Shown here piece after piece: positions 24,001-36,000 of a DNA stretch of 64,000 nt. Made by a program: the position numbers. The stretch's first letter is position 1. Each line of letters opens with the position of its first letter. The DNA is from Nitrospirae bacterium MYbin3 (GTDB lineage: Bacteria; Nitrospirota; Thermodesulfovibrionia; Thermodesulfovibrionales; Dissulfurispiraceae): contig PEAD01000014.1 of assembly GCA_002753335.1 (NCBI GenBank), positions 1 through 64,000 on the forward strand, read 5' to 3'.

Positions 24001-27000
24001 AGAGGTTACTCGCGGCGTAGCAATAATTGAAGAAGAGCAGTTTGAGGTTATTGATACTCCCGGAATGTATTCTCTTATGCCAATCACGGAAGAAGAGCGT
24101 GTAGGCAGGGAGATACTGTTAAACGAGTGCCCTGATATAGTCATTCATGTAATTGATGCGAGAAATCTTGAGCGTATGCTGGCAATGACTATTCAGTTGA
24201 TAGAAGCAGGCTTGCCTGTAATTTTGGTTGTAAATATCATGGATGAGGCAGAGCGTTTAGGACTAGGCATAAACATACCTCTCCTCGGCGAAAAACTTGG
24301 CATTCCGGTCATTGGTGCGGCAATGGCTAAAAAAAGGGGCGTTGAGGAAATAAGAAAGAGCATATCAGGTTTTAATCCGAAAGAAATCCGCCAATTCAAT
24401 TACAATAAAAAATTTGAGGATGATATAACAGAAATAGCATTAATGCTAAAAGGTGACTACAGGCTTTCACGTAAAGCAATAGCCTTGCTGCTTATGCAAA
24501 AGGATAATGAAATTGCCGAATTGATTGAGGAGCAGGAAGGAGCTGGGTATCAGGCAATAGATGAGCTTGTGAGAGAGAAGGTTTTTGAGCGGAGGGAGTC
24601 TCTGCATATGGACATATCAATGCAAAGACGAGAGATTGTGAAGGGCATCATCAAGGATGTTTTCTCAGCGCCGGAGCGTAGAAGGTTTACGCTAAGCGAC
24701 AAGCTGTCAAACTGGAGCGTCAGTCCCCTTACTGGCATACCTCTTCTTTTAATAGTTCTCTATTTTGGTCTCTATCAGTTTGTTGGTGTTTTTGGAGCCG
24801 GGACAGTTGTTGATCTGCTTGAGAAGAAGCTGATAGAGGGAATGTTCAATCCTTGGATTACCGAGACGGTTAACAATGTTGTTCCTTGGGAGATTATTCA
24901 GGAGCTGATTGTCGGAGAATACGGCATTATCACTATGGGTGTTCGATATGCGGTAGGCATTATACTTCCGATTGTAGCCACTTTCTTCCTTTTTTTCTCG
25001 ATGCTGGAAGACAGCGGATACTTTCCCAGATTGGCTCTTCTTGTTGATAGGGTATTCAAAAAAATAGGTCTTTCTGGGCGTGCCGTAATACCTATGGTGC
25101 TTGGGTTCGGCTGCGACACAATGGCTACTATGGTAACAAGGACTCTTGAAACTGTTAGAGAAAGGATTATTGCCACGCTTCTCCTTGCTCTTGCAATTCC
25201 ATGTTCTGCGCAGCTTGGGCTAATCCTATCGCTTTTGTCTAAATCCCAAGGGAGCTTTTTTGTTTGGGCAGGATGCGTACTGATGCTTTTTCTAACTGTT
25301 GGATTTTTTGCCGCACGAGTCATTCCGGGGGACAAAACAATGTTTTATATGGAGCTGCCGCCTATGCGGATGCCCCAACTGTCTAATGTCCTGACAAAAA
25401 CATATACAAGAATGCAGTGGTATTTTATGGAAATACTGCCTTTATTTATTTTTGCATCTGTACTTCTATGGCTTGGAAAGATAACCCACTTTTTCGAAAA
25501 GATGGTGGAATGGTTCAACCCTGTGATAAATGCCATAGGGCTTCCCAAAGAGACCACGGTGGCGTTCATTTTCGGCTTTTTCAGGCGTGATTACGGTGCG
25601 GCAGGGCTTTTCGACCTTCAGGAAAAGGGGCTGCTAGATGTTAGGCAAATAACAGTGGCTGCTGTGACTCTTACCCTTTTCGTGCCATGCATAGCGCAGT
25701 TCCTGATAATGAAAAAAGAGCGAGGCCTCAAAACCGCACTAATGATGGGTCTGTTCGTGAGCGTTATAGCCTTTGGAAGCGGTTATTTTCTAAATAAACT
25801 GCTGGTTACAACCGGAATATTATGATGCGCTGCGGTTTTTGCGGATATGATTTTGAAGAGAAAGAAGGAATTCAGGGATGCAAGAACTGCCCCATGTCCG
25901 GCGGATGCAAAATGATAAAGTGTCCGAAATGCAACTATGAAAATCCTTCCGAGCCTTTTTGGGTAAAGAAGGTTAAAGGTTTTTTTAAGGAGGCAAACAA
26001 ATGAAACTTTCAGAAAATGCTGAAGAAATATTGGAAGCGATGTGGATTGCGATTGAAGAAAATGGGGGCGATTTTGCTGCAATACAATATATTGGAATAG
26101 ATTCTAGGGATCCTGCGTATGCCGAACTTGTAGATTCTGCCCTTATTGAATTAAAGGACGGACATGCGTATTTTTTTGAAAAAGGCAGGGAAGAAGGGCG
26201 TCAGACTATTCGTCGCCATAGACTTGCGGAGCGCCTGTTGATGGATGTTTTAGATATAAGGGGTGAAGAGGGGGATAAAAAGGCTTGTCAGTTTGAACAC
26301 CTCCTAAAAGAAGGTGTTGATATAAAAGTATGCAATATGCTGAACCATCCTTCTACGTGTCCCCATGGAAAGCAGATCCCTATGGGAGACTGTTGCACAG
26401 AGGCGCGCAAAAGCGGCAATCTTGGAGTGCTGCCTTTAACCGAACTGAATCCGAAAGAAGATGGCGAAATAGCTTTTATCCAAACCAAAGACTCAAAAAT
26501 AATGCACAAACTAATGTCTATGGGGGTTTTGCCGGGCAATCAGATTTATCTTGTGCAAAATTTCCCATCGTATATTTTTCGCATAGGCTATTCCGAGTTT
26601 GCGATTGATTCTGAGATGGCTGATAAAATTTATGTAAGACAACTGGTTCGACAATAAAAACCGAACGATTTTTATTTTGTCTGCATAAAGAACATTTGCA
26701 TACACCACCTGTCTCGTTATCGATATTATATGATAAGAGTCACCTATACACTTTTTTGTGTTAAATGTGTAAACTATCACGATTAACATTTTTTATAAGA
26801 CCATAATATTTACAATGACCCCTGCATAGAGGGAGATATGACCAAGAATCGTATATTAGTGGTGGACGATGACCCTGTTATAGGTCTGAGCTGTAAGAGG
26901 ATGCTCGGATCTGAGGGCTTTTCTGTTTTTGCGGTCAAGGACGGCGAGAGTGCTATCGACAAGATATCCAAGGAAGAGTTCGATCTTGTTATAACCGATA

Positions 27001-33000: not shown

Positions 33001-36000
33001 AACTTTCGTTCAATCCTGCGGCGTACGAACTTATCGAGAATTCGAGCAGTGAATTCCCGATGCTTCTTGTGACCGCAAATATTCTGCAGCATTCGGGCGC
33101 ACTTTCATCGCTTTCGAGAAACCTTGACTCTGTGGTTTCTGATGCGTATCTGGAATTGAGTCCTGCTGATGCCGAGAAATACAAAATCATAAATGAGAGT
33201 TATGTTAAGGTCATTTCTAAGAGGGGCGAGATTCTCCTTAAAGCCATTATATCTAACGAAGTGCCCGAGAAAACGGTGTTTGTGCCTATACATTTTGCCC
33301 ATGCAAAGGTAAATACTCTTACCTATCCTGCTGTCAATGGAGGCATTCCTCTCGTGCCGGTGAGAATAGAACCGGCTTAATGGGGAAAACCTTATTTGAT
33401 TGCATTGATGAACGATATGATTTCCTGAACCGCCTCTTCTCCGCCTGTCTGGATATATGGTGGAGGAGAGTGATGGTCAAAAAGCTTTCGCCATCCAAAG
33501 ATATGTTGGTGCTGGACCTTGCAACCGGCACAGGCGACAGCGCAAGCGGGATGCTCGATAAGGACGTTCGTGTTATCGGTCTTGACCTCAGCCTGAACAT
33601 GCTTGCGAGAGCGAAACAAAAGATTCAAAATTCTTTTTATCAGTTATCTGCAGGCACGGTCTATTCACTTCCGTTCAGAGATGGAATTTTTGACGGGCTG
33701 ACATGCGCTTTTGGCATAAGGAATATGCATGAAACCGCAAAGGCTCTAGATGAGATATTTCGTGTGATGAAAAAGGGCGGCAAGATTGTGATACTCGAGT
33801 TTTCGATGCCGAGGTCTTTTATAAGGATTCCGTACAACTTTTACCTTAAGAAGGTTATGCCTGCGGTTGCGGCCCTGTTTTCTGAAAGGGACGCGTACCT
33901 GTATCTCGCTGAATCGATCGAGGCTTTTCACAGTCCGGATGAACTTTGCAGGCTGATAGAAACAGCGGGCTTTGTGTCTTGCAAGAAAACAGCGCTATGT
34001 TTTGGAAACGTCTATATACACGAAGCGGTTAAACCATGACAGTATTAAATAATATAAAAGGGAGTATTGCTCGGCTGGAAGCAATGCGCATGCGATCACG
34101 ATATGGATAGACTTTACAAAGGCATTTGGAATTTTCAGAAATCGCACTTCAGGGAGGAAGCAGATTTTTTTCGCAGACTGTCCGAAGGGCAGTCGCCAGA
34201 GGTTCTTTTTATTACATGCTCTGACGCGCGGGTTGATCCTAATCTGGTCACTCAGAGTAGGCCGGGTGAACTTTTTATTGTTCGCAACGTGGGCAATATT
34301 ATTCCTCCATACGGCTCTATAAAAGATAAAAACAGCGTTGCTGCGGCAATAGAGTTTGCTGTATTAGACTTAAAGGTGAAAGATATAATCGTCTGTGGTC
34401 ATTCCAATTGTGGTGCAATGCAGGCGCTTTATAGGGATGAAAGTGAAATTTGCAACATGCCACATTTAAAAGAGTGGCTTCAAATGGCTGATCCGGTGAA
34501 AGACATTATTCTAAAACATTATATAACGGCTCCTGAAGAAATCCGTCATAGAGTTACCGAGGAGGAAAATATCCTCCTCCAATTGAATAATATACAGACT
34601 TATCCTTTTGTCAGGAATGCATTAGATGAAAGCACGCTTCATCTTCATGGCTGGTACTATGATATAGGAACAGGGTTTATCTATTATTACAACTCAGAAG
34701 AAGATGTTTTCGAGCTTATCCGCGAACGGAATATGAGGAAATAATTATGACAGCATTTATAGCTTCGCTTATATTTGTGGTGCTTGCAGAGATGGGAGAC
34801 AAAACACAGCTTCTTGCAATGGCCTTTGCCTGTAAGTTTCGCTGGCAGACGGTCATGTGGGGAGTGTTTGTCGCAACCGCGGTCAATCATCTGCTTGCTG
34901 CAGCAGCAGGCAGTTACCTCGCCACGGTTATCCCAATGGTCTATATCAAGGTAGCAGCAGCAGTTTCATTCATAATATTCGGCCTCTGGACAATCAGGGG
35001 CGACACATTGGAAGGTGAAGACAATAAATACAACTGCAGTCCGTTCTGGACCGTTACCATAGCTTTTTTTATGGCAGAAATGGGTGACAAGACTCAGCTT
35101 GCAACAATAGCCCTTGCTGTCGAGTATAACACTATAATAACCGTCTGGATGGGCACCACCATAGGCATGGTAATATCTAACGGTTTTGGTATTATTGTTG
35201 GCAATGTCATGGGCAAACATATTCCCGAACGCGCAATCAAATGGGTCTCGGCTCTTGTATTTATAGCATTTGGCGGATACGGGCTGTACGAAAATCTGCC
35301 GCCTTATGTGTGGAGTCTGCCGATTATAAGTGCAAGCCTTATAGTGCTTGCAGCAGCCATTTATTGCGCGGCAAGGTTGGGCGCTGGAGTAAAAAACCAA
35401 CTGCCTGTTTGTGAAAATCTAGAAACTATTACATCAAATAAGGAGTAGTAGGTATAAATCTCTAAGACAGGGGGGAAGCAGCGATGGAATGGGCAACTAA
35501 TCCTGATATATGGATAAGCCTCATTACACTTACGGCGCTTGAGATTATTTTGGGTATCGACAACATCGTTGTAATATCCATACTTGCGGGCAAGCTCCCC
35601 AAGAATCAGCAGCCAAAGGCGAGGTTTGTGGGCATAAGTCTGGCGCTTGTAACACGTTTGCTGCTGCTTTTAAGCATTGTATGGCTTGCAGGGCTTACCG
35701 CGCCTTTGTTTAGCTTATTGGGCCGCGCTATATCAATTCGAGATCTCATAATGATAGGTGGCGGACTGTTCCTGCTTGTGAAAGGCACGCATGAAATTCA
35801 CTGTGTATTCGAGACTCCGGAGGACAAAATAAAGGAAGGGGCCGGTCGTACGTTTTCTGTGATCATCTTTCAAATTGTGATGATGGATATTGTATTTTCT
35901 CTCGATTCTGTGATAACTGCGGTTGGCATGGCCCAGCATATCGGAGTAATGGTAGCTGCTGTTGTTATAGCTGTTTTCATTATGCTTGTGGCTTCTGGCA

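What a model noticed while it worked through the whole genome (the two positions that open the first line are those of the whole stretch)
26838..33380. Receiver domain fused to the HydC/NuoE subunit of a bifurcating-type enzyme
In a HydABC/Hnd-type operon (g01874-g01878) the HydC/NuoE [2Fe-2S] subunit g01875 carries an N-terminal response-regulator receiver with its phospho-accepting Asp. The fusion is conserved across the order, often beside a histidine-kinase-like gene. Inference: direct two-component control of an NAD(P)H/ferredoxin flavoenzyme.
Evidence so far: Pfam Response_reg 5-114 and 2Fe-2S 143-286, 41% to HndA. Full-length matches in 30 of 41 order genomes, in 10 of 12 families. In 8 of 9 relatives' loci it precedes the HndB- and HydB-like genes (the ninth ends at a contig edge); 5 have an HATPase kinase-like gene within two genes upstream and 3 a second receiver protein.
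(Added by a program. Inside this text positions count along the whole contig: contig position 1 is position 1 of the stretch shown here. "Call 12" and the like, gene names such as g00115 and contig names such as C1 are that model's own, and its searches are not shown. The text may have been shortened before it was handed on; [...] marks where a part breaks off. The agent that wrote the report below was given it as the finding of a first reader that could run no searches.)

Follow-up and report, generated by a model that had tools for sequence, protein, structure and literature searches.

The report
Phospho-switched spare head for complex I
A signalling receiver domain is fused to the small iron-sulfur subunit of an NAD(P)H/ferredoxin electron-input module that likely serves as an alternative head of respiratory complex I, so a sensor kinase is predicted to switch this enzyme directly, which is untested.

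Summary
The fusion is real: receiver (5-114) plus BfuC/NuoE (143-286), found in 83 of 121 order genomes, with the phospho-Asp kept in 55 of 59 loci. The operon is a Bfu-type module (BfuC, D, B and a NuoG-like BfuA without Mo or H-cluster site), not a hydrogenase. It likely feeds complex I: in relatives it replaces nuoEFG inside the nuo operon or accompanies a headless one. This genome also has a complete canonical complex I, so here it would be a second head. The likely kinase is a HisKA membrane kinase on contig C52, present in 81 of the 83 genomes; the two without it have lost the Asp. Only 3 of 124 receivers here share its helix-1 code. The neighbouring receiver-GcvH-like protein tracks canonical NuoEFG, hinting at head-swapping. 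This window's BfuB has an NADP-like pocket and no sigma-54 promoter. Phosphorylation, docking and bifurcation are untested. No paper describing the fusion was found; this scan noted it before in other genomes.

The parts
26759..26788 (.). Imperfect 30-bp palindrome (9 of 12 positions pair) upstream of the operon, with a CRP/Rex-like core (likeness recalled, not tested); no sigma-54 box here
   Evidence: Seen in the sequence. No sigma-54 match in the intergenic region; no Rex N-terminal domain found in the genome.
26838..27614 (+). Receiver fused to a GcvH-like domain that lacks a conserved lipoyl lysine (258 aa)
   Evidence: Pfam Response_reg 6-114; C-terminal profile matches GcvH structures, best E 1e-7; D54, T82, K104 in 40 of 40 loci
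27646..28506 (+). Receiver::BfuC (NuoE/HydC) fusion, 286 aa; phospho-acceptor Asp53 at 27802-27804; flexible linker about residues 123-135
   Evidence: best solved match of the C-terminal half is NiFe-HydC 7T2R_C, E 1.3e-43
28536..28919 (+). BfuD (HndB/HydD-like thioredoxin-fold ferredoxin, 127 aa)
   Evidence: present in 44 of 59 loci
29040..30914 (+). BfuB (HydB-type FMN subunit, 624 aa) with B5, B1, B2/Zn, B3 and B4 ligands; derived nucleotide pocket (Ala287, Arg307)
30918..33380 (+). BfuA, NuoG-like (820 aa): five Fe-S motifs, no Mo ligand (Gly350), no H-cluster domain; N5 segment of complex I type

Best explanation
The operon encodes a Bfu-type NAD(P)H/ferredoxin module that likely docks on complex I as an alternative to the ordinary NuoEFG head, and the receiver fused to its BfuC subunit is predicted to be phosphorylated by a dedicated membrane kinase that would gate the head's docking or electron flow. 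Inferred steps: (1) NAD(P)H binds FMN on BfuB and reduced ferredoxin binds its C-terminal clusters; the mobile C1 domain of BfuC merges the electrons as in HydABC. (2) Electrons leave through the His-ligated N5-type cluster of BfuA into NuoI/NuoCD and the quinone pool. (3) The HisKA-HAMP kinase on contig C52 (10139-11275), whose orthologues mostly carry a periplasmic CxxCH segment that this copy has lost, phosphorylates Asp53. (4) The receiver hangs on a flexible linker and acts through its conserved alpha4-beta5 face on a partner not yet identified. Shown: the fusion, residue conservation, gene orders and co-occurrence. Not shown: any phosphorylation, binding or activity.
For: Receiver intact: D53 in 55 of 59 loci and all of D9/D53/T81/K103 in 54 of 59; 120 of 120 listed homologues keep D9, D53, T81, K103. 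Kinase link: of 121 genomes, 81 have both, 2 fusion only, 5 kinase only, 33 neither. The two fusion-only genomes (G065, G083) have lost Asp53; G065 has no close kinase (best 39%). The kinase gene lies in 20 of 59 loci. A helix-1 code is shared by the four receiver classes of the cassette and by only 3 of 124 receivers in this genome: the two in the window and the one beside the C52 kinase. Alpha4 (0.72) and beta5 (0.86) are more conserved than alpha2 (0.46). Complex I link: the module replaces nuoEFG between nuoD and nuoH in G036 and lies between nuoD and nuoE in G027; nuo body genes lie within the fetched stretch in 14 of 59 loci. Of 10 fusion-positive genomes examined that lack canonical NuoF (of 18 such), 9 have a nuo operon without EFG. 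Unfused orthologues sit inside nuo operons in 6 of 8 loci fetched from family f19. BfuA residues 80-140 match complex I 75-kDa/NuoG chains in the top 38 of 43 rows, with HydA, FdsA and HoxU last. Bfu ligands conserved. This genome has no sigma-54 box and no orthologue of the cassette's activator was found, yet both receivers are intact.
Against: No biochemical data. In this genome the module is unlinked to the nuo operon, which has its own nuoEFG, and 65 of 83 fusion genomes also have a canonical NuoF. Headless complex I also occurs without this module (G023; no BfuB match in 11 of 11 f10 genomes). The same BfuC-D-B with the same cassette serves an [FeFe]-hydrogenase in 2 of 8 f19 loci, so the core is not tied to complex I. 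The AlphaFold model shows no confident receiver-BfuC packing (pTM 0.50, linker pLDDT under 50). The helix-1 pattern was derived from these families, so it may reflect common descent. G106 gave no NuoD match. G083 holds a divergent kinase frame at 46%. Related genomes are not independent samples.
Confidence: 0.5

Rival explanations
1. The receiver is phosphorylated and regulatory, but in this genome the module works as a soluble Bfu unit wired to another enzyme (formate dehydrogenase, hydrogenase or a transhydrogenase partner), not to complex I.
For: Unlinked from nuo here; canonical complex I is complete. The genome has other Bfu/Fdh-like parts on C64, C45 and C35. Related BfuC-D-B serves an [FeFe]-hydrogenase in 2 of 8 f19 loci. 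Nfn-like genes are inserted in the operon in G049, G100 and G079.
Against: The N5 segment is of complex I type; insertion in or beside nuo operons in several families; no catalytic gene recurs beside the module across 59 loci.
Confidence: 0.2
2. The receiver is a phosphate sink or feedback sensor: it drains or reports to the kinase so that transcription through the sigma-54 activator tracks the amount or redox state of the enzyme, and it does not change catalysis.
For: Four receiver classes share one code. 21 of 39 relatives have a sigma-54 box with at most one mismatch upstream of the receiver-GcvH gene. The linker is flexible.
Against: A free single-domain receiver already exists in the cassette. 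This genome lacks the box and no activator orthologue was found, yet the fused receiver is intact (genome 93.7% complete). The output face is conserved.
Confidence: 0.17
3. The receiver is a structural or assembly domain, like the mycobacterial orphan receiver bound to complex I, and phosphorylation is incidental.
For: Precedent: MSMEG_2064 is a complex I subunit with its Asp buried (PMC10068793, passages). Four loci keep the domain without Asp53. Unfused orthologues work without it in f19.
Against: Near-invariant phospho-site and tight co-occurrence with one kinase; Asp decay coincides with absence of the kinase.
Confidence: 0.1

Closest known systems
Nuo-Bfu, the predicted 14-subunit complex I with a BfuABC head (Schut et al. 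2022, PMC9304861; read abstract, section 4 part 1, section 6 part 1, passages, and searched the supplement)
   Same: BfuABC core with the defining cluster ligands; placement in nuo operons in relatives; the paper lists Nitrospirae in clade 39.
   Different: BfuC carries a receiver; the module is detached and coexists with canonical nuoEFG here; a dedicated kinase and a receiver-GcvH protein accompany it. 'Kinase' occurs 0 times in the main text; 'receiver', 'response regulator' and 'kinase' 0 times in the supplement.
HydABC of Acetobacterium woodii / Thermoanaerobacter kivui (PMC10021017, passages) and NiFe-HydABCSL of Acetomicrobium mobile (7T2R)
   Same: Best solved matches of BfuB (E 3.6e-241) and BfuC (E 1.3e-43). 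Arg307 aligns with T. kivui Arg340, which contacts the nucleotide in that NADP-using enzyme.
   Different: No H-cluster or NiFe subunits; the A subunit is NuoG-like; no receiver in those enzymes.
Mycobacterial orphan response regulator Rv3143/MSMEG_2064 on complex I (PMC10068793, passages; PMC9274095, abstract)
   Same: A receiver domain physically tied to complex I and proposed to modulate it.
   Different: A free single-domain protein bound near NuoB with no known kinase; here the receiver is fused to the input head and has a candidate kinase.
NfnABC / StnABC transhydrogenases (9N5U, 9BOV, 8OH5)
   Same: Same BfuBC core.
   Different: Their A subunit carries an NADPH/FAD domain; this BfuA has none.

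Membership tests
Bfu family (Schut 2022) | BfuB with FMN domain, SLBB, B1 cluster and C-terminal two-[4Fe-4S] domain | tested here: met
   PF01512, PF10531 (weak), PF10589, Fer4 x2; cysteines invariant
Bfu family (Schut 2022) | B2/Zn site ligands C438, C476 or Thr, H525, C531, C536 | tested here: met
   C438, T476, H525, C531, C536 by alignment to 7T2R_B; four invariant in 38 of 38, T476 in at least 90%
Bfu family (Schut 2022) | N-terminal B5 [2Fe-2S] domain of BfuB and C1 cluster of BfuC | tested here: met
   C11, C16, C48, C52 invariant in 38 of 38; C212, C217, C253, C257 in 59 of 59
Bfu family (Schut 2022) | Measured coupling of NAD(P) and ferredoxin redox | not testable with these tools
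   Needs enzyme assay
Nuo-Bfu | BfuABC genes inside the nuo operon in place of nuoEFG | tested here: not met
   In this genome nuoA-N with nuoEFG lies on C5, apart from the module. Met in G036 and in 6 of 8 f19 loci.
Nuo-Bfu | A subunit able to dock on NuoCD/NuoI | tested here: inconclusive
   N5 segment is of complex I type; binding not modelled or measured
Phospho-accepting receiver domain | Acidic pair, Asp acceptor, Thr/Ser switch, Lys, (beta/alpha)5 fold | tested here: met
   D9, D10, D53, T81, K103; five strands and five helices in the model
Phospho-accepting receiver domain | Phosphorylation by a cognate histidine kinase | not testable with these tools
   Only co-occurrence and helix-1 code
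[FeFe]-HydABC / Hnd hydrogenase | H-cluster domain in the A subunit | tested here: not met
   FeFe model matches only residues 4-216; the rest is molybdopterin-fold
Formate dehydrogenase FdsABG/FdhA | Mo/W-ligand Cys or Sec followed by His | tested here: not met
   Gly at that position in 56 of 56
Histidine kinase (for the 180-aa HATPase neighbour) | HisKA/DHp domain with phospho-His | tested here: not met
   Only HATPase_c found (protein 5); the 378-aa C52 protein has HAMP, HisKA and HATPase_c
Glycine-cleavage H protein (for the C-terminal domain of 26838-27614) | Conserved lipoyl-accepting lysine | tested here: not met
   Fold-level profile match (E 1e-7) but no conserved Lys at the aligned site

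The most novel reading that the evidence does not exclude
One sensor kinase swaps the heads of complex I: it phosphorylates the receiver on the Bfu head and the receiver-GcvH protein that acts on the canonical NuoEFG head, so the cell chooses after translation between NADH-only input and confurcating NAD(P)H-plus-ferredoxin input on a shared membrane body. Support: receiver-GcvH directly follows nuoG in 6 of 12 loci picked away from the Bfu operon, in five of them a detached nuoE-F-G operon, and among 83 fusion genomes it tracks canonical NuoF (59 both, 14 neither, 4 and 6 discordant; 54/14/9/6 if five doubtful f9 matches are dropped). In this window the Bfu head may be NADPH-fed.
Probability: 0.25. 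Interest if true: 0.88.

Novelty: new variant of a known kind. Interest (0 to 1): 0.66.

Why it matters
Bfu enzymes gate electrons by movement of the BfuC domain, and no direct signalling input to that subunit turned up in the searches made. A built-in receiver would be post-translational control of flavin-based bifurcation and of how electrons enter complex I. It gives a concrete test of the still hypothetical Nuo-Bfu: a soluble four-gene module, a named kinase, one Asp to mutate, and natural variants that lack the kinase, the Asp or the canonical head.

Tried and rejected
Complex prediction of the receiver on the BfuABC core was not available, so docking is unmodelled. No RNA holder was listed for the operon; this says nothing on expression. 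Sigma-54 control in this window: rejected, no box upstream; promoter and terminator scans gave nothing distinctive (18 found, shuffle mean 11.9). Rex as regulator of the upstream palindrome: no Rex domain found. The HATPase neighbour as cognate kinase: rejected. The module as the missing head of this genome's complex I: rejected, nuoEFG is present. ubiE downstream (33380) was not labelled in any of the other 58 loci, so it is not counted as a part. The fold search of the receiver-GcvH model returned only receiver-region rows. The BfuA tree is a quick tree with an arbitrary root; only the pairing of this BfuA with G105 (SH-aLRT 99) was used. The scan of named genomes was swamped by ordinary receivers and gave one full fusion outside the order, labelled Deferribacteres. 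Literature: searches found no paper on the fusion or the DRTGG/PHP/HATPase cassette; two searches found no paper on the NuoF glutamate, so its role in NADPH exclusion is recalled only. Most subscription papers and bioRxiv supplements are not searchable, and domain-architecture censuses of response regulators may list this fusion.
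Full report
Observation. The window holds five same-strand genes from 26838 to 33380. 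The second (27646-28506) joins a receiver (Pfam 5-114) and a NuoE-type [2Fe-2S] domain (143-286) in one frame. Homologues carry names of Thermodesulfovibrionales and Nitrospirae; all 120 listed have both domains. A search of 121 order genomes found it in 83, in 12 of 13 families, with none in 11 genomes of f10. Two further families of the class have it, while family f19 of the phylum has an unfused orthologue in 33 of 44 genomes. It is not a frameshift or chance join.

The enzyme. BfuB's best solved relatives are bifurcating HydB/Bfu subunits, and it keeps the B5, B1, B2/Zn, B3 and B4 ligands that Schut et al. use to define the family (PMC9304861, sections 4 and 6). BfuA has five Fe-S motifs with invariant cysteines, but the Mo-ligand position is Gly in 56 of 56 orthologues and there is no H-cluster domain. 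It therefore has no catalytic site and must pass electrons to another protein. Its His-ligated cluster segment (residues 80-140) matches complex I 75-kDa/NuoG chains in the top 38 of 43 rows, ahead of HydA and FdsA.

Acceptor. I mapped 59 loci: the window, one named outside locus and 57 order loci that I picked for long contigs and family spread. nuo body genes fall inside the fetched stretch in 14 of 59. In G036 the module lies between nuoD and nuoH with no nuoEFG; in G027 it lies between nuoD and nuoE. Eighteen fusion genomes have no canonical NuoF match; of 10 examined, 9 have a nuo operon without EFG and G106 gave no NuoD match. In f19, 6 of 8 fetched loci have the unfused module inside the nuo operon, the Nuo-Bfu layout; the other 2 pair it with an [FeFe]-hydrogenase-type gene. 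Against this, the own genome has a full nuoA-N on C5, and G023 has a headless complex I with no Bfu module. The best reading is a second, detachable head. Earlier scan notes on other genomes suggested this reading; the gene-order tests above are my own.

The receiver and its kinase. D9/D53/T81/K103 are all intact in 54 of 59 loci and D53 in 55. It has no HisKA domain. A true HisKA-HAMP membrane kinase lies in 20 of 59 loci, most with a periplasmic CxxCH. Its orthologue here is on C52, next to the cassette and a solo receiver, and lacks the periplasmic part. Across 121 genomes: 81 both, 2 fusion only, 5 kinase only, 33 neither. The two fusion-only genomes carry D53Y and D53N receivers; the other two Asp losses are D53E in second copies in genomes that keep the kinase. 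G065 has no close kinase; G083 has an ambiguous 46% frame. The helix-1 positions that set kinase specificity in other systems (recalled) follow one code in the solo, sigma-54, GcvH-fused and BfuC-fused receivers, and only 3 of 124 receivers in this genome match it. The pattern was drawn from these families, so it shows shared ancestry or shared selection, not binding.

Output. In HydABC the N-terminal bundle of HydC lies near the HydA/HydB interface and its C-terminal domain swings to gate ferredoxin reduction (PMC10021017, passages). The receiver is tethered to that bundle by a poorly conserved, low-confidence linker, and its alpha4-beta5 face is conserved, so it likely binds a partner. Which partner, and with what effect, is open. 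In relatives a sigma-54 box precedes the receiver-GcvH gene in 21 of 39 cases; here there is none, and no orthologue of the activator was found, yet both receivers are intact. That favours a non-transcriptional role, with the caveat of 93.7% completeness.

Two additions. First, the receiver-GcvH protein (invariant phospho-site, no lipoyl lysine) follows nuoG directly in 6 of 12 loci chosen because it lay away from the Bfu operon and tracks canonical NuoF among fusion genomes. This motivates the head-swap case. Second, 55 of 59 BfuB sequences keep the Glu of NAD-type pockets, but this one has Ala287 and Arg307, shared fully only with G105, its tree neighbour. Arg307 aligns with Arg340 of the NADP-using T. 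kivui HydB. A counter-example is 9MQX, which also lacks the Glu and was solved with NADH, so NADP use is about even odds. Three relatives insert Nfn-like genes, and two of them also extend BfuB, with a GltD-like domain in the one tested.

Wider picture. Of the best 150 representatives at 50% identity, 15 carry both a receiver and a NuoE-like part by BLAST, and several have NuoE parts only 38-44% like this one and closer to other NuoE types. Receiver-NuoE fusion may have arisen more than once; no tree was built.

Novelty and verdict. Nuo-Bfu is predicted in print, and a free receiver on mycobacterial complex I is known (PMC10068793 passages; PMC9274095 abstract). The searches found no description of a receiver fused to a Bfu or NuoE subunit. 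I also saw passages of PMC11406978 and bioRxiv 10.64898/2026.06.25.734504, which added nothing on the fusion. The scan has recorded this system in at least nine other genomes. It is a real, conserved, apparently unstudied variant of a known kind, with a plausible but untested mechanism: interest 0.66.

Noticed in passing
G000:C52:7638-11275 (L154): Kinase, anti-sigma-type kinase, DRTGG, PHP, HATPase and solo receiver cassette; the kinase has lost the periplasmic CxxCH segment kept by most orthologues, as in G006.
   Followed up: partly
G000:C64:113558-119049 (L155): A second Bfu-like module: NuoE-type gene, BfuB with C-terminal CBS pair and a T. kivui-like pocket (Ser for Glu, Arg in the loop), a 197-aa Fe-S protein and a 702-aa NuoG/FdhA-like protein.
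   Followed up: partly
L122, L156, L158: An Nfn-like gene pair (276-278 and 480-483 aa) inserted just before receiver::BfuC; in L122 and L158 BfuB is extended to about 1045 aa, with a GltD-like domain in L122.
   Followed up: partly
L127:6432-7283: A receiver with the cassette's helix-1 code fused to the anti-sigma-type kinase, linking the histidine kinase to the Ser/Thr-type cassette.
   Followed up: no
L142, L161 (second copies in G042, G075): Receiver::BfuC with D53E, a change that mimics phosphorylation in some regulators (recalled).
   Followed up: no
15 of 59 loci lacking BfuD (e.g. L119, L123, L147): Several have a BfuB whose N-terminal cluster motif is of the BfuD type, suggesting a BfuD-BfuB fusion by deletion.
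   Followed up: no
window 23047-26657: Fur, FeoB and a DtxR-FeoA regulator directly upstream; this linkage was not seen in the other mapped loci.
   Followed up: no
P0121, P0124: Proteins with tandem receiver-NuoE repeats (578 and 501 aa).
   Followed up: no
L180, L182: A second complex I-like cluster headed by a divergent 690-710 aa molybdopterin-fold protein in G086 and G023.
   Followed up: no
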